Source: Candidatus Latescibacterota bacterium (GTDB taxonomy: Bacteria > Latescibacterota > UBA2968). From it: a DNA stretch of 64,000 nt. Shown here one piece after another: positions 1,793-17,790 of the stretch (its first letter is position 1; every line of letters begins with the position of its first letter). The stretch lies in assembly GCA_965204375.1 (NCBI GenBank), contig OZ241986.1, positions 4,544,001 to 4,608,000 on the forward strand. Reading direction: 5' to 3'. A model generated the notes under the pieces. The model saw only the letters and a list, made by a program, of their open reading frames with translations, was not told the origin of the DNA and did no database searches. A program made the position numbers and the translations under genes.

Positions 1793-1823
1793 AAAAAAAG
1801 CCGCTCAAACGAGCGGCTTTTGC
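1793..1823. terminator. Bidirectional intrinsic terminator T, copy 1 of 3
   Basis: AAAAAAAGCCGCTC-AAAC-GAGCGGCTTTTGC between convergent genes; near-identical copies at 8573 and 14012. Confidence 0.85.
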
Positions 1824-1838
1824 GTAAAGAACACAGGA

Positions 1839-2669
1839 TCACTCCACCCGAAAAACCACAGAATCCGCGGCCATAGAAGCGAACAACCCAATCCCCCCCT
1901 TCACATGGAACTGCGGCTCATCTAACGCCGCTTCATCTTGCGCGCTCGAAATCAAATAATCGCCGTAATTCTCATCCAGCGCATAGACCAGAAATGAGTA
2001 TATGCCATAATACGAAAACTGTCTCGAATTTAAGGTCAACGCGCGCCCCTGCAAAAAACGCCATTGATCTGCCCGGGCAATACTATCCCGCAACGCGCCC
2101 AGCCCTGTGGTATCCACTGCGCCGCCAAACCCCCCACCAAATCTTCCAAACTGAGTCGCCAGCGGAATTTGCTCCAATAGCTCCACAGACTTGCGCGTCG
2201 TAACATATCCACCCTTTGTCTCACCCTCCCATGTGACCCGATACGCATCACCCCCAATCAGCAACGTAGATGTGCCCGAAACATGCGGCGCAACCGGCAC
2301 CGTCGTCTGCGCCGTCGCTGTACCCAACCCCGTCGTAACAGACAAGTAATAGGTCTTACCCGATTCAACAATCAGATCCGATTGCGCGTAATAACCCGGC
2401 CTATCCACCACAGGTGACAACTCGTACGACACCCCATCCACCTCAATCGTCACCAGCGCATCCGACAGCGCACTCGCCTCCCGATCATACACGCTGGAAA
2501 GCGGCATCGTTGTACCCACAAACAAATCGGACACAGGACTCCCCGCCCGCAAATAACCCTCGACATAAACCGTCTCTCGAAACTCCCCCAACGACTCAGT
2601 CGGCGCCGTGCTACAACCCCCAGCACCAAGACCGAGAACAAAACAAAATATCCATTGTATTTTTTTCAT
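1839..2669 (-). CDS. DUF4249-family outer-membrane lipoprotein
   Basis: Start MKKIQW (ATG 2669), lipobox-like GAGGC, VYVEGYL near N-terminus, HVKGGIGLFAS near C-terminus; follows TonB receptor. Confidence 0.75.
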   Translation of the reverse strand: MKKIQWIFCFVLGLGAGGCSTAPTESLGEFRETVYVEGYLRAGSPVSDLFVGTTMPLSSVYDREASALSDALVTIEVDGVSYELSPVVDRPGYYAQSDLIVESGKTYYLSVTTGLGTATAQTTVPVAPHVSGTSTLLIGGDAYRVTWEGETKGGYVTTRKSVELLEQIPLATQFGRFGGGFGGAVDTTGLGALRDSIARADQWRFLQGRALTLNSRQFSYYGIYSFLVYALDENYGDYLISSAQDEAALDEPQFHVKGGIGLFASMAADSVVFRVE

Positions 2670-2710
2670 CCCAAATTCCTCTGCATTAATATCGCAATGA
2701 CGGGTAACCA

Positions 2711-2845
2711 CGGGCGGTGTACAACTGGTCGCAGTCCAGACCAGTTCACGGTTGCCCCTACAATCAGACGAATGATTTTTCACCCTATGTTTCATCTGTG
2801 TCCATCTGCGTAAAACGCTCGAATTACTCGCGTTTTTTCTGCGGA
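2711..2845. repeat. REP-like hairpin (GTAG family) plus ATCTGCG-type intergenic repeat
   Basis: GGGCGGTGTACAACTGGTC...GACCAGTTCACGGTTGCCCCTAC; then ATCTGCGTAAAACGCTCGAATTACTCGCGTTTTTTCTGCGG, related to 24888-24927 (reverse) and 60667-60728. Confidence 0.6.
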
Positions 2846-5299
2846 TCACATATTAAAACGAAAACCAACACTCGGCAAAATCGGCTGAAGAAGCACATCC
2901 TGCACCTGAATCTCAGCCTCTGTCGCATCAAACGAGCGATACCACACATTGCGCCGATTATAGACATTGAACACACTGAACACCAGCTGCCCCCCAACGC
3001 CACCCCACCTGAAATCGCGCGTAATACCCAGATCCATGCGGTGATACGCCGGCAACCGATAGGCATTCTTCTCCGACACATGGACATAGGGAATAGACTG
3101 CCCCGTTGGCTGCTGCACCTCATAACGCGCCTCGGGAAGCGTATATGCCTGCCCCGTACCATAAACCCAATTGGCATTCAGATTCCAGCCCCTGCCCAGA
3201 TAATAATCCGTCACAACAGAAACATCGTGGCGCCGGTCGTACTTTGGCGGAAACGGATTGCCCTGGTTCAAAGCGGCAAAAGTATGCTCTGTCTTACTCA
3301 ACGTATATCCAATCCAACCCTTCAAACGCCCCTCAGTCTTCCGAAGCAAAAACTCCCCACCATAAGATCTTCCCGAACCAGTCGCGAACAAATCGGACAG
3401 CGGCGTCGAATCGCTCAGACGAACCTGGGACTGAAACGCCACAAGATCATCCATCTCCTTGTGATAAAATTCCAGATCAACCTGCCAGCTTTCACCCGGC
3501 GTCAACATAAGGCCAAACGCATTGTGAACAGCTTTCCCCGGCGTCAAAGTCTCATCCACCGGCAGCCACATATCCGTCGTATAAGTATTGGCCTCAATCG
3601 AAATCAAATTGACAAACTGGTGATAAATGCCCCAACCGCCCTTAAACGCGATCCTATCATCCAGTTGAAACAAACCCGCCACCCGCGGAGACCAGCGGGT
3701 ATAATTGCCACTCTGGAAATGACTCACGCGCACCCCAGGCGTCAACTCCAGACGCCCCCAGCGCATCGTATGCTCGAGAAAACCCGTCTGATAAAAAGAC
3801 GACGTATTAATCTGTGACCGGGTCGAATCGCCCACGCCCTGCTTGTAAAAAGCGTCATACGATGTAAATTGGGCACCCACGCGCGTCGTGTGAAAAGGAC
3901 CCGAATAAAGATCAAACGTCAACTTTGCCGTCAAATCGTTCAACTCATTATTGCGATTCAATGCAAAGCCACGCCGTCCGCCTCCACCTTGTCCCGCCTG
4001 ATCACTATTGACAGCCTCGTTTTGATTGGTCGCAACATCAAAATTGGACAGATATCGACTCGCCGAAACCTGCACATTGCCGATCAAATTATCCGTGTAA
4101 ATATGCAACCACTTAAACCGCGCAATCCGATTGCCCCAATCCATGAGCTGATCGCGCGTCTGCTCTCGAAAAGACGGCAGCGACAGATTCAGCGCATCAT
4201 TGCCCATATATCCACTCACCGAAACCCGGTCATTGTCAGACACATCTAAATTGAGCTTGAAATTCGTATCGTAGAACCCATAATCCTGTCCAAAATCGCT
4301 CGTCTGCTGCTGAAAATTGAACCGCGCCTGCCCAAAGCGTCCCCCACCTTGCCGTCTCCCAAAGCCGCCACCTCCCAATCCCCCCGGCCCACCGCCAGTA
4401 ACTGGAGCCGTGCCAATGGTGCCAATGCGCGTACTGAACATTTCATCCACGATATGATCAAACAGCGGCGAATTTAAAACCTCTTGATATGTGCGCCGCC
4501 CCGAAAACATCCACGAACCGCGATCACCCACTGGCCCACCAACCGTCAACCCCGCACTGATCAAATCCATGGACGCCCGCGCATCAAAAGACTTCCGGTT
4601 ACCATCCAAATTTGTAATATCCAGCACACTCGACAGGCGGTCGCCATACCGCGCGGGAAACGTCCCCTTAATCAGAGTGACATCCTTCAACGCATCGGGA
4701 TTAAACGTACTAAAAAACCCAAACAAATGATTCGGATTATAGACCACCACATCATCTAACAGAATCAAATTTTGTCCCGGCGTGCCCCCGCGCACATACA
4801 AACCCGCAGAATTTTCACTCGCGGCCTGCACGCCCGGAAGCAATTGAATCCCGCGCATCAAATCGGGCTGCCCCACCGTCGGAATACGCGCCAACTCCGT
4901 CACCCGTGTGCCAAACGCACTCACAGGCGTCACCTCAGTCGGTGCCACGCGCTCGCCTATGGCCTCGATCTCCTCACCCATCAACTCCGCAGGCTCCAAC
5001 TCAATCACAATCCGCGCGGTCTCACCCTGTATAACCACGACCTGAACAGACCGGCTCTCATAGCCGATATAACTCGCCGAAACCCTGTGCAAACCCGGCG
5101 ACAGATTCCCAATGACAAAATAACCGGCCTTATCTGTCGCCACACCAATGTGCAAACTGTCAATCACAACATTGGCATTCGGCAGAGTCTCGCCATTGGA
5201 AGCATCGCGCACCGTACCCCGTACCGCACCCTGACCATACGCCTGTGTACTGATGGCAAGACATACAACGCACAAAAACAACTGCACAATCCTCTTCAT
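2846..5299 (-). CDS. TonB-dependent outer membrane receptor with N-terminal carboxypeptidase-regulatory-like domain
   Basis: Signal peptide MKRIVQ; VRGTVRDASNGETLPNANV; plug motifs LYVRGGTPGQNLILLD and FPARYGDRLSSVL; C-terminal LPAYHRMDL...FNVYNRRN...GFRFNM. Confidence 0.92.
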   Translation of the reverse strand: MKRIVQLFLCVVCLAISTQAYGQGAVRGTVRDASNGETLPNANVVIDSLHIGVATDKAGYFVIGNLSPGLHRVSASYIGYESRSVQVVVIQGETARIVIELEPAELMGEEIEAIGERVAPTEVTPVSAFGTRVTELARIPTVGQPDLMRGIQLLPGVQAASENSAGLYVRGGTPGQNLILLDDVVVYNPNHLFGFFSTFNPDALKDVTLIKGTFPARYGDRLSSVLDITNLDGNRKSFDARASMDLISAGLTVGGPVGDRGSWMFSGRRTYQEVLNSPLFDHIVDEMFSTRIGTIGTAPVTGGGPGGLGGGGFGRRQGGGRFGQARFNFQQQTSDFGQDYGFYDTNFKLNLDVSDNDRVSVSGYMGNDALNLSLPSFREQTRDQLMDWGNRIARFKWLHIYTDNLIGNVQVSASRYLSNFDVATNQNEAVNSDQAGQGGGGRRGFALNRNNELNDLTAKLTFDLYSGPFHTTRVGAQFTSYDAFYKQGVGDSTRSQINTSSFYQTGFLEHTMRWGRLELTPGVRVSHFQSGNYTRWSPRVAGLFQLDDRIAFKGGWGIYHQFVNLISIEANTYTTDMWLPVDETLTPGKAVHNAFGLMLTPGESWQVDLEFYHKEMDDLVAFQSQVRLSDSTPLSDLFATGSGRSYGGEFLLRKTEGRLKGWIGYTLSKTEHTFAALNQGNPFPPKYDRRHDVSVVTDYYLGRGWNLNANWVYGTGQAYTLPEARYEVQQPTGQSIPYVHVSEKNAYRLPAYHRMDLGITRDFRWGGVGGQLVFSVFNVYNRRNVWYRSFDATEAEIQVQDVLLQPILPSVGFRFNM

Positions 5300-5304
5300 G
5301 GTCT

Positions 5305-5468
5305 CTCCTTTTCCCCTCCCAAGGACGGTTTTGAAATAATCCTCCCTTCTGACATTTCTTAGATTCACAGAATGACTTTTCCGTTCCCCATTTTCTGTAC
5401 AAAAATTGTTAAGATTCTGTTAAAATCCGTAAAAAAAACGCGCCCATTTCTCAATGGACGCGCTTTAT
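5305..5468 (-). repeat. Duplicated upstream block (terminator U, promoter region, RBS), copy A
   Basis: Colinear homology with 8317-8478, including identical AAAACGCGCCCATTTCTCAATGGACGCG hairpin. Confidence 0.8.
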
Positions 5469-5504
5469 ACTTCGATTCGACGGGTTAGGTACAGAAAAAG
5501 GTGG

Positions 5505-8237
5505 TCAATTGACAATCACAAACAGACCCTTCTGGGTCTGCCCCAAACTCTCGGGATGGTGTGACTCAATCACCCAGATATACGTACCGGCATTGAGACG
5601 ACCCCGCGTATTGGCATTCAAGCCCACCGTATGCGTATCCCACTCGACCTCGCCCTGCACCACCGGGCTACCCCGCTGCGGATCGAGTGAATCAAAGGTA
5701 TCACGCCAGGCCAGATCGCCCGTCAGCGTGTAAATGTACAGCGTACACCTGCTCGGCACATTGATCCACCGGATGCGAGGCGCGCCATAGCTGTGCTCAT
5801 CCATGCCCTGTACCCAGGGATTGGGCACCACCCTGATCGGCAGTGACATGGACTCATTTTCATGATTGAGCAAGGCAGAGGTCAAGCGCGGCACAAGGCC
5901 ATTGGGGGGATTCAGATACTGATTGCGCTCATCCGAGTGCCCGGTTTCCAGACCCTGCTCATCAAAAGCGCGTACCGAATAGTGGTAAACAAATCCCTGG
6001 CTGGGCTCTGGATCAGTAAACATATAGGTACCCCAGCGGAAAGGACCATCAACCTCGGCTTCGGCAGGCTCCTCCTCGCCTTCTGCCCAGGGCTGATTGA
6101 TAAAAGAAGCACCCGGGGGCGCATCTGAGGGCAACTGCCGTTCGCCCTCAGGTCCCACAGCCTTGGGAATCGTCGCCAGCAATTTCCACGGACCAGCCCG
6201 CATAAAATCAGAGCGATAGATCCGATAACCCAGCACATCGGGACGACCCAGATCCGGATCAATCGCCGTATCGGCAATACCCGACCAGTTCAGTTCGACT
6301 TTCCCTTCCAGATTCGTCATCCCATTGACCTTCACATCGGGTGGTTGGTTAAGCCCGTCAAAACCCAGATCATACAGCTTTTGAGCCTCATTGCCGTGGG
6401 CATAAATCGCTTCGAGACCCAGTTCCAATTCGTCAACCAGACTCTGCTGCTGCCAGTTCCACTCGTAGGGACGCGCATAATTCCCGCTATCCATGCGATA
6501 TTTGGCTGAATTGGCCGCCATACCCGCCACATACGCGATCACGACTTTTGCTTTGTCGCCGGGACCCAGGGTATAGGGACCGTAAATCTGTGCATCGATC
6601 CACGCACCCAATTCCTCATTGTCGTGGTGCTGCACCATCCGATCGGTCTCATGATCTCCGAGCACGCCAGCAGCATCGCTATAGATGTCAAACAATTGAT
6701 TCTCGCCGTGCGTACCGCCATGCGGATCATCGCCTAATGCCGAAGAATACATCCGCCATCTGAACACAGTGTGGGGCTGTGGACCTTGCGGCTTCACATA
6801 ACCGCCTTTTCTATCCAGAGCATTAAAGGGATGCTCAGATGTACCCGTCGCAATCGGCATCATCCCGATGTACTGCGGAGAAAGCAACGTATCATCCTTA
6901 AAATTGGACGTTGATACGTATTGATGCTGTGCGCGGGATCGGGTATAAGGCTCACCCAAGTCATTCCACAGGCGGGCAACGGCATCGCCATCATACACAT
7001 ACGTCAGGTGCATCGGCGCACCCTTGTAGTTGTAGGCATATTCCGGATGATCGTAATTATCCGCCTGTGTATAGCGCCAGTGATCGTCTTGCGTGGAAGG
7101 CTGCACAAGGTTCCACGCATTCGAGTTCGATCCGCCAGCCGGCACCCACTCAGCACCGGTCTTGCTGGCGATAAACCCGTTCTTGACCACGATATAGACT
7201 TCGTCGAGTTGTTTGGGATATCCGGCATCTGCTTTGCCATCGCCATCTGTATCGCCGTTATTCCAGAACTCGATCTCCGTGATCAAAAAGTCGTCGTAAT
7301 CACCCCGGGTCATGATCGAAGACTGCTTGCCTTTAGGAGTTGGCACGGGGATCATCACGTCGTTATCAGTACCGGGTGTGGAATACGCATGGATCATCCG
7401 CTTCACCGTAATACCCGAAGCCTGTGTCCAGCCGGTCACCAGCAGATTCTCACCGAACAACTCGGGCGACAAACGCGGATCATTGGTCTTCACCCCATTC
7501 GATCGCATCTGATTCAATCCGGCGCGCACCCTTTTGTAGGATGACTCCAGCATCTGCTTGAACGACTCATTGTTCAGGGGATAAAATCCATAGCCCCAGT
7601 TGTAATAATCCATTGGCTCTACTTTTTCCGGTCCCGGCGGAAAAGCGCGTTGTCCCAAACCGCCGTAGGTACTGAAATCATACTGGTATTCCACAGCCTC
7701 GCCATTCACAAAATGGTGTGTGATCTTCATATCTCTCATGCGGGGCCAATAAAGCGCAGCATTCTGCCCGTAATTGAACAGATTAAAAGGGCGACCACCA
7801 GACCGCCACACAGACCGCCAGATCGATGCAATGCTTTCGACATTATTGCGCGGATTGTGCTGGATAGAAAAAATGTCTGCGGTTGGCTGGCGGGGACCTC
7901 CCTGAGATACAAACTTGCGACCATCATTTGTGCGCGCCATCACCCACACGCCATTGCCACGCGAATTGTCCTGCCGGTTCACGCGGTTCACAATACCCGA
8001 CGAATAGGTCGAAGTCCACCGTCCGGGATAAGACATGCCCACCTCAGCACCAATGATGGTACCGCCATCCAGCGAGTGCCCCAAGGTGCCGTTGTTGCGC
8101 ATCGACACCCAGAGCTTCGCGCGATTGGTCGTACGGCGGCGCGTGCGCTGCTGCGCCTCGACATCAATCGCCATATACAACTCCGACACACCCAACACAC
8201 CAATTAGAATTAGACAAAACAATAAAAACTTGCGCAT
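5505..8237 (-). CDS. Large secreted protein with FN3-like domain and FCB-type C-terminal Ig/FlgD-like (T9SS-CTD-like) domain
   Basis: Start MRKFLLF (ATG 8237, RBS AGGAGG); VELNWS...GYRIYRS...YHYSVRAFD FN3 signature; IRVVPNPW...IRWINVPSRCTLYIYTLTGDL...W C-terminus. Confidence 0.7.
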   Translation of the reverse strand: MRKFLLFCLILIGVLGVSELYMAIDVEAQQRTRRRTTNRAKLWVSMRNNGTLGHSLDGGTIIGAEVGMSYPGRWTSTYSSGIVNRVNRQDNSRGNGVWVMARTNDGRKFVSQGGPRQPTADIFSIQHNPRNNVESIASIWRSVWRSGGRPFNLFNYGQNAALYWPRMRDMKITHHFVNGEAVEYQYDFSTYGGLGQRAFPPGPEKVEPMDYYNWGYGFYPLNNESFKQMLESSYKRVRAGLNQMRSNGVKTNDPRLSPELFGENLLVTGWTQASGITVKRMIHAYSTPGTDNDVMIPVPTPKGKQSSIMTRGDYDDFLITEIEFWNNGDTDGDGKADAGYPKQLDEVYIVVKNGFIASKTGAEWVPAGGSNSNAWNLVQPSTQDDHWRYTQADNYDHPEYAYNYKGAPMHLTYVYDGDAVARLWNDLGEPYTRSRAQHQYVSTSNFKDDTLLSPQYIGMMPIATGTSEHPFNALDRKGGYVKPQGPQPHTVFRWRMYSSALGDDPHGGTHGENQLFDIYSDAAGVLGDHETDRMVQHHDNEELGAWIDAQIYGPYTLGPGDKAKVVIAYVAGMAANSAKYRMDSGNYARPYEWNWQQQSLVDELELGLEAIYAHGNEAQKLYDLGFDGLNQPPDVKVNGMTNLEGKVELNWSGIADTAIDPDLGRPDVLGYRIYRSDFMRAGPWKLLATIPKAVGPEGERQLPSDAPPGASFINQPWAEGEEEPAEAEVDGPFRWGTYMFTDPEPSQGFVYHYSVRAFDEQGLETGHSDERNQYLNPPNGLVPRLTSALLNHENESMSLPIRVVPNPWVQGMDEHSYGAPRIRWINVPSRCTLYIYTLTGDLAWRDTFDSLDPQRGSPVVQGEVEWDTHTVGLNANTRGRLNAGTYIWVIESHHPESLGQTQKGLFVIVN

Positions 8238-8252
8238 CGTGTGATTCCTCCT

Positions 8253-8304
8253 ATTTTGCCCCGGCGTGCCTCCGCGCACCTACAAGTCCGCGGAATTTTC
8301 ACTC
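8253..8304 (-). pseudogene. 52-nt relic of the TonB receptor plug-coding region in the leader of the 910-aa gene
   Basis: 46/52 identical to 4769-4820 (ENSAGLYVRGGTPGQN); Tyr codon changed to TAG. Confidence 0.8.
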
Positions 8305-11386: not shown

Positions 11387-12609
11387 AGTTCCTCCCAATT
11401 CGTGAATGCATCTGTCACAGACCCGAAACCCGGAAGGTTCGTATCTGCAACGGTGAATATCTCGGCTTTTGGATTTCCGCCTGACCGGGGCCCGCGCATC
11501 GCTCGACCTGCCATTTGTGAGTAGAGTACCAGTGATGTGGTAGGCCGGGCGATAATGACGCAACGAGTCCTGGGCGCGTCAAAACCGGCGGTAAGCACGC
11601 CGTAGTTGAACACCACTTTATGCTCCCTGCTGTCGCTCCTAAAGTCATCAACAATAGATCGGCGATCTTCACCTGGTGTATTCGCTGTTACCACTGCACT
11701 TGCAACTCCTTTACTGCGGAGAAGTCTGTTGCATTCCACAGCACTTTCAACAGAAGGGCAAAAAACAATTGTACGAAGGTGGCGTCTAACTGCATCCTCT
11801 GTGAGTTCGACTATTTTTATTGTCCGCTCGTGGTTGCGACCCAGATCGTCCAACTCATGAGTGCTGTAATCCATACCAGGTTGAGGATCTGTAATTACGA
11901 TATCGGAGTCGAAGCTGATCGGCACAAAGCGGGGATCGGCGAGGTAGCGATTCTGGATTAGATAGGTAACGGGGCTATCGTAACCTCTTGGATCTATCGA
12001 AACCTTGTTGTGATTGAACATGTCGGCAAGTCGATAGTCCTCATCCGTTAGATTCGCTGTGCGTCCTGGCGTAGCCGTAAGACCAAGGAGGGGCGGCCTA
12101 ACACTGCATAGCTGCTCAGTTATAAAAGAGTAAGTTTCCGCAACTGCCTGATGAGCCTCGTCAAAAATGACGGCAGCAGCACAGTTCGCAAGGTGTGCAA
12201 GGAGAGTGTTGTCTTGGAATGCAGCAGAGCGCAGTTTGGCAAGACCTGTCACCAAGAACCCGGATGGAAGACGCCGTAGATCAAGTGACCGGCTTCCCCA
12301 GTTTCGATGAATGGAGGCATCCCACCGTCCCAGATATGTCCAGGCGTCTGCGAGTTGGTTTGCCGCTTGTTCGCAAAGTTCCTCAGTAGCAGCCAACCAG
12401 ATGACCAAGGAATTATCGGTGTCTTTTTCGTTGAGCAAGTGACATGCCGTGTGGGCTGCGATTCTGGTCTTTCCCGCACCGGTAGGAAGATGAGCCACGG
12501 CTCGACGTTCAGGAGATGATAGGGCATGAAGGATGTCAGTCAACACCTGCCGCTGGTAGGGATATAGCGGGAACTTCGGCCTGACCGTTTCCACCTCTGT
12601 TTCAGACAC
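11362..12609 (-). CDS. SF2 DEAD/DEAH (ResIII-like) helicase
   Basis: LYPYQ, LPTGAGKT, DEAH, GLTATP, VLTAGFDAP, QMAGRAMRG; likely GTG start at 12609 overlapping the upstream stop (alternative ATG 12675). Confidence 0.92.
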   Translation of the reverse strand: MSETEVETVRPKFPLYPYQRQVLTDILHALSSPERRAVAHLPTGAGKTRIAAHTACHLLNEKDTDNSLVIWLAATEELCEQAANQLADAWTYLGRWDASIHRNWGSRSLDLRRLPSGFLVTGLAKLRSAAFQDNTLLAHLANCAAAVIFDEAHQAVAETYSFITEQLCSVRPPLLGLTATPGRTANLTDEDYRLADMFNHNKVSIDPRGYDSPVTYLIQNRYLADPRFVPISFDSDIVITDPQPGMDYSTHELDDLGRNHERTIKIVELTEDAVRRHLRTIVFCPSVESAVECNRLLRSKGVASAVVTANTPGEDRRSIVDDFRSDSREHKVVFNYGVLTAGFDAPRTRCVIIARPTTSLVLYSQMAGRAMRGPRSGGNPKAEIFTVADTNLPGFGSVTDAFTNWEELWSNNSTT

Positions 12610-13471
12610 CGCAAAGGCCTTCGCATTCGTTTTCAAAGTGATTGATCCCTTCCCCTCCCTCTGTTTCTTGCTCATCAATAACGCTGTCAAGGGGACGACG
12701 TGCAGAATGTAGATATGGCCGACCGTGTAGCAATTCCCTTACAGGATTCTTTGTACTATGGCGGAGCCATCGATCAAAATGCACAGCCTCCTCGTAGCTA
12801 TCTGGTTCAGACTGCTTTAGTTCCAACCAATGTTCGTCTGACCGATAAGGACAGATGACGCAAGCTGACCGGGGCAGGTGGCGACCTGGATATTCCGAGT
12901 TAAACCATTCAACACAATCTTGGCGTGTCATACCAATATCCACTAGTGGCCAGCGATGTTCGACCCACCGTTCTCGGCTCGGCTTCATGCGGCCCACTTC
13001 ATCCAGCGAAATTCCGATCCACATTTCGGCGTGGGTGTTCTTGGGAAATGGTCGGCCGCGCTGTCCTCCCGCGAGTTCCCTAACCCGTCGATAAATAGGC
13101 TTAATCTTGTAGTGAGTGGTGCATTGCCGCCGCAACATGCCCTTCTTCCCATCCCCATTGACAGTGAATAAGGGAACATCAACAAAGTTGTGACCCGACA
13201 CCGTGCGGGCTTTTTTAAGATTAGTTTTTAGATCGCCTTCAGACACGCGAATCAGTGGATATTGGAGTTGCTCTTCAAGCCAGTCCAAATGTTGATATAC
13301 ATAAGCTGGCTCCCATCCAGTATCAGCGAAGACGGCGACGTCAGGTTTAGGATAGCCCAACTCAATCAAACGAGGGTGGGACCTCGATAGGAGGAGTGCT
13401 AAAACAGAACTCTGTACGCCAGCCCCCAAGCTCAGGGCACGATAGGTTACGGTGCTCGTCTTCACGACCAT
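12602..13471 (-). CDS. PAPS-reductase/PP-loop (adenine nucleotide alpha-hydrolase)-like protein with Cys motifs
   Basis: LSLGAGVQSS PP-loop variant, FADTGWEP, RRQCT..YKIKP, WIGISLDE, SACVICPY, C-terminal ECEGLCGV. Confidence 0.8.
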   Translation of the reverse strand: MVVKTSTVTYRALSLGAGVQSSVLALLLSRSHPRLIELGYPKPDVAVFADTGWEPAYVYQHLDWLEEQLQYPLIRVSEGDLKTNLKKARTVSGHNFVDVPLFTVNGDGKKGMLRRQCTTHYKIKPIYRRVRELAGGQRGRPFPKNTHAEMWIGISLDEVGRMKPSRERWVEHRWPLVDIGMTRQDCVEWFNSEYPGRHLPRSACVICPYRSDEHWLELKQSEPDSYEEAVHFDRWLRHSTKNPVRELLHGRPYLHSARRPLDSVIDEQETEGGEGINHFENECEGLCGV

Positions 13472-13533
13472 TTCGAAAGCCTCCTTGATTCAGTTGCATG
13501 AATGTCTGCTCAGGACAGATAAAAATATGAGAT

Positions 13534-13562
13534 ATTATAGTCAGTAGCGGTAAAAGGGTCAA
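13534..13562 (-). promoter_or_regulatory. Near-consensus sigma70 promoter of the four-gene operon
   Basis: TTGACC (13562-13557), 17-bp spacer, TATAAT (13539-13534) on the minus strand. Confidence 0.75.
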
Positions 13563-14011
13563 GGGAGAGGATGGAAAATTTTTGATATCGTTAAATGGCG
13601 GTAAGCAGTTTTTATAGACTGCTTACCAAACGAGTTTTCGCTATAGATTACAGGCTGACTGATGTTACGCGATGTCCCTGTATTTCGTCCTGCATTGGGA
13701 ACTCACGTCACGCATCTAACGTCGCTCAGAATCTCAGCAAATATCAGGCCAATGTCACAGCATCGCGTGACAAATTGTATGGACAGCATCAAAAACCCTT
13801 ATTATGTCTTCGATATGCTGTATTGCGCCCTTGTTCACGACCTGAATTTTAAGGATCGTCTGTTGAAAAGAAAGCGGCACAGAACAATTTCGGATGCGAA
13901 AGTGTATATTTTGAGCGATGAATGAGTGGTCAGGTGAAAGATATGTACCGCTTGACCATGTAGCTGCCGCGGTGGTTATCTGTGTGTGCTTGCGTAACGC
14001 GAGAGGCTAAC

Positions 14012-14113
14012 AAAAAAAGCCGCTCAAAAGAGCGGCTTTTGCAATCGCACTACCATCAGACCGTCGCCTGCAGATCCTTCAGATAACTCAACGTATCGCG
14101 GATACTCGCCTCT
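14012..14113 (-). repeat. Terminator T copy 3 plus duplicate of sugar-isomerase gene 3' end
   Basis: 14056-14113 is 52/58 identical to 16981-17038 (EASIRDTLSYLKDLQATV* versus ...KELQATV*). Confidence 0.9.
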
Positions 14114-14115
14114 TT

Positions 14116-14376
14116 TTAGCGTTGATATACGTCTCCCGTTTCACGAAGCAAATCGCGCAAAGGCCGTGTCTCGCTATTCTCCTCGTTCGCTTCTTCCATT
14201 AACATGGTATCAACAGCATCCTGCAAGTGAGGAGGAAGCGTCTCCCAATCTGTTTCCCGAGCCACCTTTTGAATTAAAGTCTTGAAATCGTCATATCCAA
14301 GTATCACCTCTATGACCTCACCTGAATCATCATATACCCATTTTGGAGAACGAGATTTTTCGAGAATGCGTGTCAT
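14116..14376 (-). CDS. Small acidic hypothetical protein (orphan antitoxin-like)
   Basis: Start MTRILEK (ATG 14376), 86 aa; PKWVYDDSGEVIEVILGYDDF N-terminus resembles small antitoxin-like proteins. Confidence 0.5.
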   Translation of the reverse strand: MTRILEKSRSPKWVYDDSGEVIEVILGYDDFKTLIQKVARETDWETLPPHLQDAVDTMLMEEANEENSETRPLRDLLRETGDVYQR

Positions 14377-14440
14377 ATTACCCTCAATAGTATTGATCAA
14401 GTTAAATCTGAAAATAAGTTGAATTTCTATTGATGTCAAT

Positions 14441-14536
14441 TCAGGACTGTCGCTTATAGCTCTTTCAAATACCTCAGCGTATCGCGGATGCTTGCCTCAG
14501 TCGTATCCGACGTCCCTTTCTCTACACACAGCGGAC
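14441..14536 (-). repeat. Second, longer degenerate duplicate of sugar-isomerase gene 3' end
   Basis: Aligns with 16981-17075; reads PLCVEKGTSDTTEASIRDTLRYLKEL*. Confidence 0.88.
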
Positions 14537-14602
14537 AGGTGGAAAATCAACCAATACTATATCAATACGCCGATGTTAGAGTTATTTTTTCAACCATCGG
14601 AT
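14535..14602. repeat. 68-bp direct repeat, right copy (includes GWxTD stop codon)
   Basis: 63/68 identical to 8488-8555. Confidence 0.88.
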
Positions 14603-16944
14603 CGGAAGCGCACTTCGCGTTCGACGCTCTTGCCACTGACCAGGTCGGTTACAATGACCTCGAGTGCGTTGACCCCGGGTCTGACTTTGTTGAGTACGAT
14701 TTCGACGTATTCCCGTTCGTCGGCGTCGCGTCCCGTGAGCTCGTTAGTGATGGCCACCTGGGGTTTGCTGGTTCTAAAGATGGTGCGCAACCCCGTAGCC
14801 ACTGCGCCAAATACACCAACAGCGGGCATAGCACTGGAACGAATGCGGTATTCGGTTTTGTAACGGGTTTGTCCAAAGGTGTCTTTGGTCAGGTTGTAGA
14901 TTTCAAAGTAGGCATAGACATTTTGCGTTGCGGCATAACTGCGCGTGGGAATGGGGATGATCCACACATCTTCTTTTTGGAATTTTGTCGCGCCTTCTTC
15001 CGCAATGCTCGAGGCCAGTTGAATTTCACTGACTTGAAGCTCTGGGATCTGATAGTCTCTGACTTCGAGTTCTTGCCGGTAGAGTCCGGTGCGTCCAGAG
15101 ATGAGGTCTTTCATTTGCACTTGAAGTTCGTATTTGCCGGGCGGTACCTGTGTTTTGATGATTTCAGGCACAAAAGCACCCTGTTCGATTGTGCTGGGTA
15201 CTTGCGCGCCGCGATACGCGAACTCATCGGTTGTGCGATAGATGGATGTATGACCCTCATTTGCCAGCGCAACGGCCAATTGTACGTGTATGAAACTCGA
15301 ATCGGCTTCTTGCTCAATTTCGACCTGCTCGGGCGGGATGCCGTAATAAATCTCGAGATTGGTTTGCCCGTCGGGTCCGCGGAAGTGCGCCAGATCATAG
15401 TAGAAATTGAGTATATCGCCGGGAAGACCAGGGCGGTAAAAATCGGGTGAAGTCGATACGGCTTGCTGGTAGATGACTTCGGGCATGTATTCGGTCATGC
15501 GGGCGATATAAGCGATGGCTTCGGGATCTGCAATGCTTGTGGCTTCGGGTAATGGGGCAAAGTCATAGCGTCCATTGCCCATTTCGTCGGTAAAGGTAAT
15601 CTCTATGCCCCCATTGATCTGAATATAGGTCCAGGTTTCCCAGGGCACAGTATCAATTTCACTGCCAATGGTAACAGGCGAAAAGCGGCCAAATTGTAAG
15701 CGGGTGTTGAGTTGTCCCGTTTGCTCATCGAGAACGCTTTCGATGGTGCCATCGCCCTCAAATGGATTATCCTCAACGAGTTCGAAACTTATGTCGCGGT
15801 TGGTGCGAATGGGAAAGACGGGACCTGTGAAGGTGAAATGGGCAGCTTCAGGACCGTAGATGTCAACGGCCATCTGCGTGCGCACGCGCTCTACTTCGGC
15901 GGTTTGAAAAAAGTTGCGATCATTGGAGCGCGACCGATAGTCGGGTTCGCCATATCGAATATAAACAGCACCTCGCTCATCCCAGGGATAGACATTGGAC
16001 GAAAAATAGGTGCGCGCATACCAGGTGCGGCGGTAGTGTTCGATGACGCGCTCGTTGAGTTTGGTGAGAATATCGGGGTCGCGCCGTGCCCAGAATTGCT
16101 CGCGATATGCCTGTTGTTCGGGCCCCGGTGTGGCGGCGTGGTATTCCTGGAGTTCTGTATCTGAGGCAACATAGGCAATATCGGTGTAGTGTGCGCGTTC
16201 ACTGCTTTTGATGTTGGCGAGATAACGCTCGAAGAGTTCAAGGGCTTTTTGCGCCTCGTCGTTGTAAAAATGACCCTGTGCAACAATGGGCAAGAGCTGA
16301 ACCACATCGGGGTGTGCGGAGAGATAGGGAGCAATATGTTCGAGAATGGTGTCAAATGCTTTGGCCTGTACACAGGCTAAGCCGTAATAATAAAGATTAT
16401 CGGGATTATCGGGTTCGAGTTCGACGTATTTCTGATAGTACTGCATAGCCCTATTGTGGTCTTCTTCAAATCGCTCATAGACTTCGCCGAGCAGACGATA
16501 GGCCGGACCGTAATTGGGATCGAGTTTGGTGGCGCGCTTGGCTTCGCCAATAGCTCTGTGAAAATTGTAATAAGATTGCAGGCCCCGCGTGGGTACTTTG
16601 GCATACGTAAGGCCAAGCCCGACATAGGCCTCGACGAGGCTTTTGTCGAATTTTTTGGCTGTTTTGAAGGCGCCTTCAGCTTCTTTGTATTCTTTCCGTT
16701 TGAGATAGATATAACCCAGTTGAGAATACACATGGGCGTCTTCGGGAAAGTTTTTTAAAATGCGTTGGAGAGTCGCCATGGCCTCGTTGATTTCACCCGC
16801 TTGAATCTGACGCTGGCTCAGGGCAAACAGCGTATTTCGGACGATCTTGTCTTGTTGAGGTGCTTCATCTTCTTCTGCAAGAAGAGGCAGCGCAATGCAA
16901 GAGGCACAGCAGACAACCATCCAGAACTGCAATCCAATTTTCAT
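14590..16944 (-). CDS. TPR-repeat plus GWxTD-domain secreted protein
   Basis: Signal peptide; several TPRs; FWARRDP...EHYRRTWYA...PWDERGAVYIRYGEPD (GWxTD-domain variant); C-terminal Ig-like domains. Confidence 0.82.
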   Translation of the reverse strand: MKIGLQFWMVVCCASCIALPLLAEEDEAPQQDKIVRNTLFALSQRQIQAGEINEAMATLQRILKNFPEDAHVYSQLGYIYLKRKEYKEAEGAFKTAKKFDKSLVEAYVGLGLTYAKVPTRGLQSYYNFHRAIGEAKRATKLDPNYGPAYRLLGEVYERFEEDHNRAMQYYQKYVELEPDNPDNLYYYGLACVQAKAFDTILEHIAPYLSAHPDVVQLLPIVAQGHFYNDEAQKALELFERYLANIKSSERAHYTDIAYVASDTELQEYHAATPGPEQQAYREQFWARRDPDILTKLNERVIEHYRRTWYARTYFSSNVYPWDERGAVYIRYGEPDYRSRSNDRNFFQTAEVERVRTQMAVDIYGPEAAHFTFTGPVFPIRTNRDISFELVEDNPFEGDGTIESVLDEQTGQLNTRLQFGRFSPVTIGSEIDTVPWETWTYIQINGGIEITFTDEMGNGRYDFAPLPEATSIADPEAIAYIARMTEYMPEVIYQQAVSTSPDFYRPGLPGDILNFYYDLAHFRGPDGQTNLEIYYGIPPEQVEIEQEADSSFIHVQLAVALANEGHTSIYRTTDEFAYRGAQVPSTIEQGAFVPEIIKTQVPPGKYELQVQMKDLISGRTGLYRQELEVRDYQIPELQVSEIQLASSIAEEGATKFQKEDVWIIPIPTRSYAATQNVYAYFEIYNLTKDTFGQTRYKTEYRIRSSAMPAVGVFGAVATGLRTIFRTSKPQVAITNELTGRDADEREYVEIVLNKVRPGVNALEVIVTDLVSGKSVEREVRFRSDG

Positions 16945-16980
16945 GGTGTTCTCCCGATTGATCAAGATGTAAAACTGCTC

Positions 16981-17790
16981 TTAGACCGTCGCTTGCAGCT
17001 CTTTCAAATAACTCAGCGTATCGCGGATACTCGCCTCTGTCGTCTCCGACGCACCCTTCTCCACACACAGTGGACCCGCGTAATCTGCCGCATTTAAAAT
17101 TTCCAAACACGTCTTCAAATCATATCCCATAGCTTTGCCATCCCGCTCCCACGCCTGCACGCCGTCATCACTGTAATTAAACACCTTCACATGACACGAA
17201 AACGCGCGCGGTGCCAGCACGCGCATGCCCGCCTCCCAATCGCCATCGGGAAAATTCGCCGTATCTGGACAGGTGCCAAACCAATCGGAACCCACCCCAT
17301 CCAAAATCCGCTGCAAATTATCAGAAGAAGACGACACCCCCCCGTGATTCTCCACCAGCAGCTTCACACCCGCCTGCTCGCCCACAGCCACCAATTCCCG
17401 ATACCCCTCAATCACCCGGCTCATCGCCCCATCGTCATCCGCGTGCCCCGTATTAATCCGTATCGCCTCGGACCCCACAGCCGACGCCGTGTAAAACCAC
17501 TGCTTCAGCGCCTCCAGATCCGTGCGCCGCACAGCCGCATCAGCACCCGCAATATTGCCCATATCCACCGCGATATTGCGCACCGAAAGTCCATTGTCAG
17601 CCAACCGATTCCGAAGCTCATTCAAATACCTCGCATCCTGAGACTCAAAAAACCGCGAACACAACTCCACTGTCTCCACGCCATGGGAGGCACACACCTC
17701 GGGAAATTCCAGCAAAGTCAGCGACTTCTCCCGCAAAATTTCACCGCTAAGCACCCATCCGGCAATACCGAGTTCGAGATCCATACTCAT
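16981..17790 (-). CDS. Sugar phosphate isomerase/epimerase (xylose isomerase-like TIM barrel)
   Basis: LLVENHGG, TCPDTANF, CHVK, LCVE metal-site motifs. Confidence 0.88.
   Translation of the reverse strand: MSMDLELGIAGWVLSGEILREKSLTLLEFPEVCASHGVETVELCSRFFESQDARYLNELRNRLADNGLSVRNIAVDMGNIAGADAAVRRTDLEALKQWFYTASAVGSEAIRINTGHADDDGAMSRVIEGYRELVAVGEQAGVKLLVENHGGVSSSSDNLQRILDGVGSDWFGTCPDTANFPDGDWEAGMRVLAPRAFSCHVKVFNYSDDGVQAWERDGKAMGYDLKTCLEILNAADYAGPLCVEKGASETTEASIRDTLSYLKELQATV

What the first reader, a model, noticed from the sequence alone, without database searches (positions are those of the whole stretch)
1793..17075. Integrase-free accordion locus: cassettes bordered by duplicated gene ends, terminators and promoters
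Seen, between the SPFH gene and the sugar isomerase: three copies of terminator T (1793, 8573, 14012); three copies of the isomerase 3' end (16981, 14441, 14056); two of the GWxTD 3' end plus flank (14535, 8488); two of the DUF4249 3' end (1839, about 8620); two of a roughly 165-bp promoter block (5305, 8317). No integrase, transposase or tRNA is present. The 14056 copy differs from the live gene at 6/58 nt but by only one conservative residue (E to D), suggesting it was once a functional gene end under selection. Inference: about 15 kb accumulated by repeated events in which incoming DNA replaced a gene's 3' end with a diverged allele and pushed the old end and terminator outward. This could be homology-facilitated insertion or an unrecognised trans-acting cassette system that targets gene ends.
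Basis: partly seen in the sequence, partly recalled or inferred. Interest (0 to 1): 0.75.

Follow-up and report, generated by a model that had tools for sequence, protein, structure and literature searches.

The report
Integrase-free cassette pile-up behind a gene end
In an uncultured sponge-associated bacterium, about 15 kb of accessory and anti-phage genes has piled up behind one housekeeping gene through repeated recombination that pushed old copies of the gene's end outward, a process so far described mainly for toxin genes.

Summary
The genome is a closed 6.34-Mb Candidatus Latescibacterota MAG. Its nearest relatives in public runs come from sponge and coral metagenomes.

Across 19 congeneric genomes the interval takes 15 different arrangements. 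They range from left gene–terminator T–isomerase to the 16.6-kb stack seen here.

The relics were once working gene ends:
- Copy B is the live isomerase end in G012.
- Copy A joined to T is live in another sponge run and in outgroup genomes.
- Relic and live copies differ mostly at synonymous sites, 74 synonymous to 37 non-synonymous over 12 pairs.

Breakpoints vary (2, 21, 58 and 95 nt). No shared core sequence exists. The whole genome has only two Xer-like tyrosine recombinases and one serine recombinase.

Best reading: homology-driven 3'-end displacement, of the Rhs-type "C-terminal displacement" or HFIR kind, with no dedicated cassette machinery.

The same footprint flanks a four-gene candidate defence operon that is shared across phyla.

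The parts
1..366 (+). 3' end of the left core gene. This is the true conserved left border of the hotspot at genus level.
   Evidence: Homologous at 79-86% in outgroups G001, G017 and G019, where it lies next to T.
489..1773 (+). GntR regulator (489-872) and SPFH/Band 7 protein (862-1773). Present only in the ingroup clade.
   Evidence: Pfam hits. An SPFH orthologue of at least 92% identity was found in 16 of 21 genus genomes, G000 included.
1791..1823 (.). Terminator T1, a two-way hairpin between SPFH and DUF4249.
   Evidence: Repeat family D6. Flagged as terminator-like.
1824..5473 (-). Cassette A: DUF4249 gene (1839-2849), TonB-dependent receptor (2846-5368), promoter block 1 (5287-5468) ending in hairpin T' (5431-5468).
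   Evidence: Pfam. Present as one unit between T and the isomerase in G014, G018, G007 and G010.
5474..8487 (-). Cassette B. It holds a secreted 893-aa protein of no known family (5505-8186). Upstream of that gene lie a 52-nt relic of a TonB plug (8253-8304) and promoter block 2 (8300-8478) with its own T' (8441-8478).
   Evidence: No Pfam family. B is present in G005, G004 and G016.
8488..8555 (-). Relic of the GWxTD gene end: the last 13 coding nt plus 55 nt of flank.
   Evidence: 93% identical to 14535-14602. The same junction to T' is live in G016.
8572..8647 (.). Terminator T2 (8572-8604) with a relic of the flank and last codons of DUF4249 (8605-8647).
   Evidence: 80% identical to 1793-1866 and up to 88% identical to T/DUF4249 junctions of other species.
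8648..14009 (-). Cassette C, a candidate defence operon.
- PLD-like nuclease: 8673-9527.
- MORC-like GHKL ATPase: 9530-11563, split here by an in-frame stop at 10766-10768.
- Helicase: 11362-12690.
- PAPS-reductase-like protein: 12602-13471.
- About 540 nt of upstream DNA with a promoter-like site at 13562-13534.
   Evidence: The operon is conserved at 65-85% amino-acid identity in 36 loci from many phyla.
14010..14113 (.). Terminator T3 (14010-14042) plus relic A of the isomerase end (14056-14113). Together they are the ancestral junction of isomerase and terminator.
   Evidence: The same junction is live in G019, G001 and G017 and in a contig of run X1 (joint 14077 to 17003). Five synonymous changes and one non-synonymous change against the live end.
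14114..14444 (-). Remnant of cassette D, a ParE-type toxin-antitoxin pair. The antitoxin ORF survives (14116-14376/14439). The toxin gene is lost in a 250-nt deletion near 14130.
   Evidence: G012, G015 and G002 carry 250 more nt there. In G012 these encode a ParE toxin (Pfam E 2.5e-11).
14445..14536 (-). Relic B of the isomerase end: 92 nt, now carrying an in-frame stop.
   Evidence: 86% identical to 16984-17075. The B-type end is the live end in G012. Nine synonymous and four non-synonymous differences.
14535..16961 (-). Cassette E: the TPR/GWxTD protein gene (14590-16965) with its 55-nt 3' flank.
   Evidence: Pfam and NCBIfam hits. Present without any isomerase relic in G016, G008 and G006.
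16962..17790 (-). Live sugar-isomerase-like TIM-barrel gene (16981-17790) with its conserved 19-nt 3' flank. This is the right anchor of the hotspot.
   Evidence: Pfam AP_endonuc_2. Orthologues of 85-97% identity in all 21 genus genomes. The flank is conserved next to T' in 10 genomes.

Best explanation
This is a recombination hotspot between two conserved genes, the gene ending at window 356 and the sugar isomerase. Alternative cassettes carried by different lineages have been stacked there one behind another.

Each addition seems to work as follows. DNA from a related lineage carries the 3' part of the anchor gene followed by that lineage's own downstream cassette. It pairs with the resident anchor gene by ordinary homology. 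The other join falls a few to about 100 nt upstream of the resident stop codon. This could happen in one of two ways: single-crossover or ends-in integration of a circular or permuted fragment, or one homologous plus one illegitimate join (HFIR).

The result is: gene body, then a working end, then the new cassette, then the old end with its terminator and everything that lay behind it. The short duplicated end later serves as a homology arm. It lets the cassette be lost by recombination between the repeats, or passed to any genome that has the same gene end.

No dedicated recombinase is needed.

Shown here: the repeats, the variable content, that the relics were once live ends, the variable breakpoints and the lack of integrases.

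Inferred: the recombination route, the DNA uptake route, and how each cassette first came to lie beside the anchor gene.
For: 1. Content varies among relatives. The gap between SPFH and the isomerase runs from 129 nt (G020) to 15.2 kb (G000) (coordinates). There are 15 arrangements in the 19 genomes where the locus is resolved, built from modules A to F in many combinations.

2. The relics were live ends.
- G012's working isomerase ends with the B-type sequence directly followed by cassette D.
- T followed by an A-type end is the live state in G019, G001 and G017 and in a contig of run X1.
- The junction of T', 9 nt and the GWxTD flank at 8478-8488 is the live junction of G016.

3. Differences between relic and live copies are mostly synonymous. 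The counts are A 5:1 and B 9:4. Over 12 pairs from two phyla the total is 74 synonymous to 37 non-synonymous, against about 25% synonymous expected for random change. Seven of the 12 pairs are individually significant.

4. Breakpoints are not fixed. Isomerase relics are 2 nt (G004), 21 nt (G015), 58 nt (A) and 95 nt (B) long. The one junction for which both parents are known overlaps by only 2 nt, AC at 14535-14536.

5. No recombinase is available.
- None among the 16 ORFs scanned.
- 0 tRNA genes in the window.
- The whole genome holds 2 PF00589 hits, both about 300 aa and far away, 1 PF00239 hit and no Ku.
- ComEC and DprA are present.

6. Loss through the repeats, or the matching unfilled states, is seen in other strains. 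Run X19 contigs join 5405 to 8416 (no B) and 14472 to 17012 (no E).

7. The same footprint exists elsewhere.
- In a Dehalococcoidia genome the defence operon sits in a 5064-nt insert flanked by an 86-nt repeat of a solute-binding-protein gene end. The unfilled site with a single copy is seen in G051.
- An OLD-family cassette sits at the same gene end in G049 and G052, with 252-256-nt repeats.
- At least four more loci in G000 show it.

8. A precedent is in print. Rhs 'C-terminal displacement' by RecA-type recombination with circular intermediates is described in PMC2935791 (I read the abstract, section 10 and passages of the discussion). HFIR was proposed for orphan immunity arrays in Vibrio cholerae in PMC5361080 (passages).
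Against: 1. Several pairs of relic and live copy are nearly identical and both carry the resident lineage's own variants:
- G041, 2 differences in 86 nt, both copies of resident type;
- G052, 98.4% identical;
- G012 and G015, 1-2 differences.

The two T copies that flank the defence operon are identical within G001, G017 and G002 but differ between those genomes. A plain swap with a diverged allele does not predict this. It needs gene conversion, gap repair during ends-in integration, donors of the same species, or a fresh duplication at each insertion.

2. In G049 it is the relic, not the live end, that looks foreign. So at least some cases are later spread of a unit that was already flanked by repeats.

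3. In six events the live copy's homology starts within a few nt of the stop codon. Tight operon spacing in the donor explains this for the isomerase. It does not explain the recent G041 insertion.

4. No circular form, excision read or transformation event was seen. Only contigs, not raw reads, could be laid.

5. The first arrival of any cassette beside its anchor gene is not explained.
Confidence: 0.68

Rival explanations
1. Each first insertion creates the repeat on the spot. Foreign DNA enters by an illegitimate or replication-linked route such as template switching or a staggered break. That route duplicates 30-250 nt of resident sequence, with one edge at the stop codon. Diverged pairs of relic and live end then arise only later, when the unit spreads between lineages by ordinary recombination.
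For: - G041 against its 95%-identical relative G051 shows a clean 5064-nt insertion with an 86-nt duplicate. Both copies are of the resident type.
- The repeats are near-identical in G052, G012 and G015, and the T copies around the operon are identical within a genome.
- Relics of end A in G012, G015 and G002/G000 share one inner junction, yet each carries its own genome's variants.
- Seven of 34 defence-operon loci have repeats made of local sequence, against 3 of 1122 mismatched flank pairs.
- The ends of the operon cassette vary: 8-545 nt upstream and 1-75 nt downstream.
Against: - Copies A and B in G000 and the relic in G049 differ from the live end mostly at synonymous sites.
- B-type and A-type ends are live in other genomes. 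This shows real allele displacement for the reported locus.
- Gene conversion or gap repair would also produce near-identical copies.
- No known bacterial route gives target duplications of 30-250 nt (from my own knowledge).
Confidence: 0.17
2. A site-specific recombinase acting in trans, for example the host XerC/D pair or an unrecognised enzyme, integrates cassettes at att-like sites such as hairpins T and T' or the gene end. This would resemble ICE/CIME accretion, pdif modules or an integron without its integrase.
For: - All cassettes but one point the same way, and hairpins T or T' sit at most borders.
- T flanks the defence operon as a perfect 37-40-nt direct repeat in G001 and G017.
- The genome does encode two Xer-like recombinases.
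Against: - Relic lengths differ: 2, 21, 58 and 95 nt.
- Repeats around the same operon in other genomes are unrelated local sequences. They include a 5' UTR, a coding gene end and terminators.
- T occurs only 4 times in the genome.
- T and T' read as plain intrinsic terminators. T1 and T3 are flagged as such.
- No integron integrase and no dif-like sequence was noticed. The latter rests on reading the sequence only.
Confidence: 0.07
3. The stack is an assembly artefact that merges strain variants of one locus.
For: - The genome is a MAG with 5.5% estimated contamination.
- Related strains with other arrangements live in sponges.
- MAG G013 holds two copies of the locus on separate contigs.
Against: - The chromosome is a single 6.34-Mb contig.
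- Run X15 contigs cover the key junctions at 100% identity.
- G002, an independent closed genome, shares five of the junctions.
- The relics differ from the live copies by 7-14%, and relic B carries an in-frame stop. A merge of strains would not give this.
Confidence: 0.02

Closest known systems
Rhs 'C-terminal displacement' arrays (Jackson et al. 2009, PMC2935791; I read the abstract, section 10 and discussion passages)
   Same: - An intact gene is followed downstream by direct repeats of its own 3' part, of varying length.
- Each repeat brings different downstream DNA.
- The repeats are near-identical to the resident gene.
- There is no integrase.
- The model proposed there is excision as a circle by recombination between repeats, followed by single-crossover entry that shunts the old end downstream.
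   Different: - Here the anchor is a housekeeping sugar-isomerase-like gene, and in another phylum a solute-binding-protein gene. The displaced ends encode the same residues as the live end.
- There is no variable toxin tip and no immunity gene.
- What changes is the cassette behind the gene.
- A terminator and a promoter block can also serve as the repeat.
Orphan immunity-gene arrays in Vibrio cholerae T6SS clusters, proposed to arise by homology-facilitated illegitimate recombination (Kirchberger et al. 2017, PMC5361080; passages read)
   Same: Successive insertions are anchored in a conserved upstream gene, and each pushes the earlier module further downstream. HFIR is named as the likely route.
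   Different: - In Vibrio the old effector is mostly deleted and the retained genes are immunity genes under selection.
- Here the whole earlier cassettes are kept, and the relic is only a short gene end.
Neisseria 'minimal mobile elements' (I saw only search listings and abstract starts for PMC3787668 and PMC1797815; the definition is recalled)
   Same: A site between two conserved genes holds different cassettes in different strains. There are no mobility genes. Exchange is by transformation and recombination in the flanks.
   Different: As I recall them, these elements replace one another. Here cassettes add up, and duplicated ends mark each addition.
Tandem accretion of integrative elements at a gene's 3' end (ICE/CIME arrays, tRNA-targeting islands; recalled, no paper read)
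   Same: The element supplies a new gene end, the old end is displaced as a direct repeat, and arrays can build up and shrink.
   Different: This kind needs a tyrosine or serine recombinase and a fixed crossover core. Neither was found here.

Membership tests
3'-end (C-terminal) displacement array | An intact gene followed downstream by direct repeats of its own 3' part, of varying length | tested here: met
   The live end is at 16981-17075, relic B covers 92-95 nt and relic A 58 nt. Relics of 21 nt and 2 nt occur in G015 and G004.
3'-end (C-terminal) displacement array | The displaced ends were once attached, working ends | tested here: met
   The B-type end is live in G012. The A-type end plus T is live in G019, G001, G017 and run X1. 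There is an excess of synonymous differences.
3'-end (C-terminal) displacement array | The displaced tips encode different toxin domains with cognate immunity genes (the Rhs/CDI/T6SS sense) | tested here: not met
   The relics encode the same residues as the live end, apart from one E-to-D change in A. The anchor is a xylose-isomerase-like TIM barrel.
Integrase-mediated accretion (ICE/CIME, gene-end-targeting islands) | A tyrosine or serine recombinase gene within or beside the array | tested here: not met
   No such Pfam family among the 16 ORFs scanned. In the whole genome PF00589 hits only 4257832 and 3366173, and PF00239 only 673295.
Integrase-mediated accretion (ICE/CIME, gene-end-targeting islands) | The same core sequence and crossover position at every junction | tested here: not met
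   The inner borders of the isomerase relics lie 2, 21, 58 and 95 nt from the stop. Repeats around the defence operon in other genomes are unrelated to one another.
Integron or attC cluster without integrase | An intI gene and attC sites closing short, mostly promoterless cassettes | tested here: not met
   There is no intI nearby. The cassettes are 0.4-5.5 kb and carry their own promoter blocks. The recurring hairpins T and T' read as plain terminators. attC structure itself was judged by reading the sequence only.
Homology-facilitated illegitimate recombination | One join in homology and the other at a non-homologous site with a few bases of microhomology | tested here: inconclusive
   Only one junction has both parents known. 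That is relic B joined to the GWxTD flank, which overlap by 2 nt (AC, 14535-14536). Parents of the other junctions were not sampled.
Homology-facilitated illegitimate recombination | The host takes up DNA (natural transformation or an equivalent) | not testable with these tools
   ComEC (1 hit) and DprA (3 hits) are encoded. Both genes are also common in species not known to transform. The organism is uncultured.
Minimal mobile element / replacement hotspot | Different cassettes between the same two conserved genes in different genomes, with no mobility genes | tested here: met
   15 arrangements in 19 genomes between the left core gene and the isomerase.
Transposon or insertion sequence | Terminal inverted repeats, a short target duplication of fixed length, and a transposase | tested here: not met
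   None for cassettes A to E. The only such element seen is a 1.6-kb insert in G002, with 12-nt inverted ends and a 9-bp duplication at the window-equivalent of 13576-13584.

The most novel reading that the evidence does not exclude
Short duplicated gene ends, terminators and 5' leaders may act as portable, recombinase-free attachment sites.

On this reading, cassettes leave as circles by recombination between the repeats. They re-enter any genome that has the same gene end, and gap repair resets both copies to the resident sequence.

This would make 3'-end displacement a general route of gene gain in sponge symbionts, and not a quirk of toxin loci. It could help explain how a four-gene defence operon moves between phyla without any mobile-element genes.

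A bolder form: first insertions follow an unknown rule that places foreign DNA right after a stop codon and duplicates 30-250 nt of the gene end.
Probability: 0.2. Interest if true: 0.8.

Novelty: new variant of a known kind. Interest (0 to 1): 0.55.

Why it matters
Defence and accessory genes often sit in hotspots that carry no mobile-element genes, and how they get there is an open question.

This locus preserves a readable record of at least five successive additions, with intermediate states still alive in sister species.

It shows that displacement of gene ends, known from Rhs and T6SS toxin loci, also works at ordinary housekeeping genes. In this way it builds a defence island in bacteria that nobody has cultured.

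The same footprint surrounds a widely shared, unnamed four-gene defence operon in a second phylum, and an OLD-family gene at the same site. Duplicated gene ends could therefore serve as a simple marker for recent integrase-free gene gain in closed metagenome-assembled genomes.

Tried and rejected
1. Reads. Only Logan contigs, not raw reads, were on offer for the 4 runs laid. Circular forms, excision junctions within the source population and read-level support could therefore not be examined. Stretches without cover in runs X1 and X19 say nothing.

2. Two exact-pattern scans of the metagenome contig collection found nothing. One used the cassette end in G041 and the other the junction of relic A with cassette D.

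3. I looked for a close copy of G041's defence cassette in another context to define its ends. All other copies are only 64-76% identical at the DNA level, and homology stops at the coding region.

4. I looked for an unfilled site at the PhyH/LRR locus of G000. Relatives share the PhyH gene only, and the flank is variable too, so this stayed unresolved.

5. I tested whether cassette B is a diverged duplicate of cassette A. The proteins share no similarity beyond a 9-residue plug motif, which lies in the upstream relic.

6. Genome-wide counts rest on my crude ORF calls. They are inflated by paralogues that share C-terminal domains and by a dispersed repeat with a CAGGAT periodicity. I use them only to show two things:
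- both gene ends are enriched among the duplicates (41 and 33 of 155 pairs in the first and last tenth of a gene, against about 10 per inner tenth);
- several other relics anchored at a stop codon exist.

7. The primary HFIR papers (PMC122324, PMC122325) are not held. What I say about HFIR comes from the passages in PMC5361080 and from memory.

8. Literature searches found no description of gene-end displacement at housekeeping genes or in sponge symbionts. The searches were 'Latescibacter + sponge + defense system' (5 papers, listing only) and 'C-terminal displacement / orphan / homologous recombination / direct repeat'. This is no proof that none exists.

9. I considered and set aside an integron, Xer/dif modules, a class C group II intron at terminators and a transposon. 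The reasons are in the membership table.

10. The look-up of earlier findings returned nothing for this place.

Full report
**1. What is there**

The window lies at 4,544,001-4,608,000 of a single-contig 6.34-Mb genome. Record titles of its closest relatives name them Candidatus Latescibacterota MAGs. Public runs that hold the stretch are mostly sponge, coral or marine metagenomes.

Between 1 and 17,790 the genes read as follows:
- the 3' end of a left core gene (to 356, + strand);
- GntR (489-872, +) and SPFH (862-1773, +).

All the rest lie on the minus strand:
- DUF4249 (1839-2849);
- a TonB-dependent receptor (2846-5368);
- a secreted protein of about 893 aa with no known family (5505-8186);
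- a PLD-like nuclease (8673-9527);
- a MORC-like GHKL ATPase (9530-11563);
- a helicase (11362-12690);
- a PAPS-reductase-like protein (12602-13471);
- a small ORF (14116-14439);
- a TPR/GWxTD protein (14590-16965);
- a xylose-isomerase-like TIM-barrel gene (16981-17790).

**2.

- three copies of terminator T (1791-1823, 8572-8604, 14010-14042);
- three isomerase ends (live 16981-17075; B 14445-14536 at 86%; A 14058-14113 at 91%);
- two GWxTD ends with flank (14535-14602 and 8488-8555, 93%);
- two T/DUF4249 ends (1793-1866 and 8574-8647, 80%);
- two promoter blocks (5287-5468 and 8300-8478, 79%).

E-values against the genome run from 1e-8 to 3e-34. Apart from one further T-like hairpin at genome position 6,336,177, the pieces occur nowhere else.

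I add one relic. Fifty-two nt from inside the TonB plug domain (4769-4820) recur at 8253-8304. There they read SENSADL*VRGGTPGQN just upstream of the true start of the 893-aa gene. That protein is otherwise unrelated to the TonB receptor and to DUF4249.

Each promoter block ends in a second hairpin, which I call T' (5431-5468 and 8441-8478).

The window has no tRNA gene. None of the 16 ORFs scanned is a recombinase or a transposase.

**3. Not an assembly artefact**

Contigs of run X15 match the window without a single difference across 7590-8530, 8513-8922 and 13932-14577. These spans cover the following junctions:
- promoter block 2 to the GWxTD relic;
- the GWxTD relic to T2, the DUF4249 relic and the defence operon;
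- T3 to relic A, the small ORF, relic B and the GWxTD flank.

X15 may be the source sample, so this checks the assembly rather than the biology. The independent closed genome G002 shares the junctions from the GWxTD relic through T2, the DUF4249 relic, the operon, T3 and relic A. So does a contig from another study, L104.

**4. Relatives show a modular hotspot**

The isomerase has an orthologue of 85-97% identity in all 21 genomes of the genus. SPFH has an orthologue of at least 92% in 16 of the 21. I fetched the interval from 14 genomes and from 6 more, and mapped each onto the window.

I name the modules:
- A, DUF4249 plus TonB receptor plus promoter block and T';
- B, the 893-aa gene with its own promoter block;
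- C, the four-gene operon;
- D, the small-ORF unit;
- E, the GWxTD gene;
- F, a 1025-nt unit seen only in G004 and G015.

The arrangements are:

| Genome(s) | Arrangement |
|---|---|
| G019 | left core – T – isomerase |
| G001, G017 | left core – T – C – T – isomerase |
| G011 | unrelated content |
| G014, G018, G007, G010 | SPFH – T – A – isomerase |
| G009 | as above, with an internal deletion |
| G020 | SPFH – T – 23 nt of A – half of T' – isomerase (a deletion derivative, not a pristine empty site) |
| G005 | A – B |
| G004 | F – A – B |
| G016 | A – B – E |
| G008 | A – E |
| G006 | T – 114 nt – E |
| G012 | A – relic A – D – isomerase |
| G015 | F – A – relic A – part of D – E – a 24-nt relic – isomerase |
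| G002 | A – GWxTD relic – T2 – DUF4249 relic – C (plus an insertion sequence) – T3 – relic A – D – isomerase |
| G000 | the same as G002, plus B, relic B and E |

That makes 15 arrangements in the 19 genomes where the locus is resolved. G003 and G013 are fragmented; G013's two contigs both show the junction of A with the isomerase.

At genus level the conserved borders are the left core gene and the isomerase. GntR-SPFH is itself missing from the outgroup genomes.

**5. The relics were working gene ends**

- In G012 the live isomerase ends with the B-type sequence (…ATVLN*), and cassette D follows at once.
- T followed within about 15 nt by the isomerase stop is the arrangement frozen at 14010-14113. 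It is the live state in G019, G001 and G017.
- A contig of run X1 joins 14077 to 17003, which is C – T3 – live isomerase.
- The junction of T', 9 nt and the GWxTD flank at 8478-8488 is the live junction in G016.

I also counted codon changes between each relic and its live copy:

| Pair | Synonymous | Non-synonymous |
|---|---|---|
| Relic A vs live | 5 | 1 (E to D) |
| Relic B vs live | 9 | 4 (one is a new stop) |
| All 12 pairs | 74 | 37 |

About 25% of random single-base changes would be synonymous. The 12 pairs come from this locus, from four other G000 loci and from a Dehalococcoidia gene. Seven of the 12 are individually significant.

Even if only the relic decays while the live copy stays under selection, I estimate about 40% synonymous, still well below the 67% observed. 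So much of the divergence arose while both copies served as gene ends in separate lineages.

**6. No sign of a site-specific system**

- Isomerase relics end 2 nt (G004, between A and B), 21 nt (G015), 58 nt (A) and 95 nt (B) upstream of the stop.
- The only junction with both parents known, relic B joined to the GWxTD flank, overlaps by two bases.
- Internal gene pieces and promoter blocks are duplicated as well.
- Among 155 local repeat pairs with one non-coding and one coding copy, 34 reach a stop codon and 31 reach a start codon.
- The whole genome holds two tyrosine recombinases of about 300 aa, at 4,257,832 and 3,366,173, which I take to be XerC/D by size only. It also holds one serine recombinase at 673,295 and no Ku.
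- ComEC and DprA are present. This allows DNA uptake but does not show it.

**7. A workable history (inferred)**

1. Ancestral state: left core – T – isomerase, as in G019.
2. One lineage held C between two T copies, as in G001 and G017.
3. Another lineage gained GntR-SPFH to the left of T, and A with T' to the right.
4. A copy of A was gutted and refilled with the 893-aa gene, giving B. B still carries A's promoter block and a plug relic. In G004 the isomerase flank, its stop codon and 2 nt lie behind it.
5. C with T3 and the isomerase replaced most of A in one haplotype, leaving T2 and the DUF4249 relic.
6. An A–E haplotype was then added from the SPFH side, leaving the GWxTD relic.
7. D, with a B-type isomerase end, displaced end A.
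8. E, with the present end, displaced end B.

Run X19 shows a strain without B (joint 5405 to 8416) and without E (joint 14472 to 17012). Run X18 shows the junction of A with relic A. These are either the unfilled states or losses through the repeats.

**8. The same footprint elsewhere**

Module C is a conserved operon found at 65-85% amino-acid identity in 36 loci. The order is PAPS-reductase-like protein, helicase, a 620-aa MORC-like ATPase, then the PLD nuclease. The loci come from Chloroflexota/Dehalococcoidia, Alphaproteobacteria, Gemmatimonadota, Acidobacteriota, Entotheonella, Binatia and other Latescibacterota.

The copy in G017 sits at the same site in the same genus, yet it is no closer to G000's copy than the Chloroflexota copies are.

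Seven of 34 loci with both flanks have a direct repeat at the operon's borders. Only 3 of 1122 mismatched flank pairs do. The repeats are 30-128 nt long, 92-100% identical and made of local sequence. They include a terminator, a 5' leader with its ribosome-binding site, and a coding gene end.

In Dehalococcoidia genome G041 the insert is 5064 nt, flanked by an 86-nt repeat of a solute-binding-protein gene end. G051, which is 95% identical, has the unfilled site with one copy.

At the same gene end, G049 and G052 carry a 2.1-kb OLD/GajA-like gene with repeats of 252-256 nt.

In G000 itself, relics anchored at a stop codon flank four more cassettes:
- an LRR protein behind a PhyH gene (243 nt, 96.7%);
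- an APH-like kinase behind an MFS gene (130 nt);
- a PD-(D/E)XK nuclease behind a Schlafen/AlbA gene (100 nt);
- a cytochrome c peroxidase behind a LacI-like gene (147 nt).

**9. What plain allele displacement does not explain**

- In G041 both copies are of the resident type.
- In G012 and G015 relic A differs from the genome's own live end at 1-2 positions and shares its lineage-specific variants. Yet all relic A copies share one inner junction.
- The two T copies around C are identical within G001, G017 and G002 but differ between them.
- In G049 the relic is the foreign-looking copy.
- Jackson et al. noted the same within-genome identity for Rhs core fragments.

Gene conversion would produce this. 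So would repeated loss and re-entry through the repeats. A third route is ends-in integration of a broken circle, with the gap copied from the resident; that last idea rests on the double-strand-break repair model as I recall it. A fresh duplication at each insertion would give the same picture, so I keep it as the main rival.

In six events the live copy's homology begins within a few bases of the stop codon. Tight operon spacing in the donor accounts for the isomerase cases: D's first possible start codon overlaps the stop as TTGA, and E starts 16 nt after the stop. The G041 case remains unexplained.

**10. Comparison with what is known**

The footprint matches Rhs 'C-terminal displacement'. 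For that, Jackson et al. proposed excision as a circle by recombination between repeated core fragments, followed by a single crossover that shunts the old tip downstream without an integrase (PMC2935791; abstract, section 10 and discussion passages read).

It also matches the HFIR model for orphan immunity arrays in V. cholerae (PMC5361080, passages).

Transformation is known to create duplications by unequal pairing between sister chromatids in S. pneumoniae (PMC3784515, abstract only).

This locus differs in four ways:
- the anchor is a housekeeping gene whose displaced ends encode the same residues;
- the earlier cassettes are kept whole;
- terminators and promoter blocks can serve as the repeat;
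- the hosts are uncultured symbionts from two phyla.

My searches found no paper describing this, which does not prove that none exists.

**11. Verdict**

The accretion-by-displacement reading is supported, and the trans-acting cassette-system reading is not.

This is a new variant of a known kind of event, preserved in unusually readable form. Its wider interest lies in the hint that duplicated gene ends mark a common integrase-free route of gene gain, including for a widely shared unnamed defence operon.

The recombination route, the way DNA enters the cell and the first insertion of each cassette remain inferred.

Noticed in passing
window 8673-13471; loci L103-L141: Module C is a conserved four-gene operon: an SspD-like PAPS-reductase-fold protein, a PbeA/RadD-like helicase, a 620-aa MORC-like GHKL ATPase and a DrmC-like PLD nuclease. 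Each protein has only a weak, partial match to a component of a different named defence system in PADLOC. The operon occurs at 65-85% amino-acid identity in MAGs of many phyla, several of them sponge-associated. It looks like an unnamed defence system that spreads between phyla.
   Followed up: partly
window 10766-10768: In G000 the MORC-like ATPase gene of module C is split by one in-frame stop into ORFs 10766-11563 and 9530-10642. It is a single 620-637-aa frame in other genomes. The operon may be inactive here. G002 also shows a break in this gene.
   Followed up: partly
window 14116-14439; L008 5220-5737: Cassette D is a toxin-antitoxin pair: a ParE-family toxin plus an 84-aa upstream partner with no Pfam family. 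G000 has lost the toxin gene in a 250-nt deletion and keeps only the partner ORF.
   Followed up: yes
L011 1546-2570 and L012 1540-2570 (G004, G015): Module F lies between T and the DUF4249 stop. It encodes an EF-hand protein and an iodothyronine-deiodinase-like thioredoxin-fold protein as two adjacent ORFs. The first ends ...FGSYT just before a stop codon, which may be a selenocysteine codon and not a real break. I did not check which stop codon it is.
   Followed up: no
L014 9772-11362 (G002), window-equivalent 13576-13584: A 1591-nt insert with 12-nt terminal inverted repeats and a 9-bp target duplication. It looks like an ordinary insertion sequence sitting in the upstream region of module C.
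   Followed up: no
window 2683-2845: About 163 nt between the DUF4249 and TonB genes is absent from many relatives: homology breaks at 2682 and resumes at 2846. The stretch consists of short dispersed repeats with 35 other hits in the genome, and contig depth piles up there.
   Followed up: partly
genome C1, for example 4230764-4283414 and many other places: A dispersed intergenic repeat of about 45 nt with CAGGAT-like words every 9-10 nt (…TCAGGATTTACAGGATTATAGGATGAACAGGAT…). It gives about 100 BLAST hits genome-wide, often as tandem pairs. Its function is unknown. It inflated my genome-wide repeat counts.
   Followed up: no
G011 C1:4747793-4747945 (within locus L121): In G011 the copy of module C lies at a different locus and is flanked by a 128-nt direct repeat. 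Close by is a 50-aa internal fragment of the isomerase gene (76% identity, one TGA). It looks as if C moved together with a piece of its old neighbour.
   Followed up: no
genome C1:5312783-5316936, 6022605-6024564, 5592932-5594762, 2122777-2125455: Four more G000 loci where a cassette sits between a live gene end and a 100-243-nt relic of that end. The cassettes are an LRR protein, an APH-like kinase, a PD-(D/E)XK nuclease and a cytochrome c peroxidase.
   Followed up: partly
window 862-1773: The SPFH protein has relatives of 67-77% identity in many unrelated phyla, yet it is missing at this locus in the outgroup species of its own genus. The GntR-SPFH pair is probably an acquired cassette too.
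   Followed up: no
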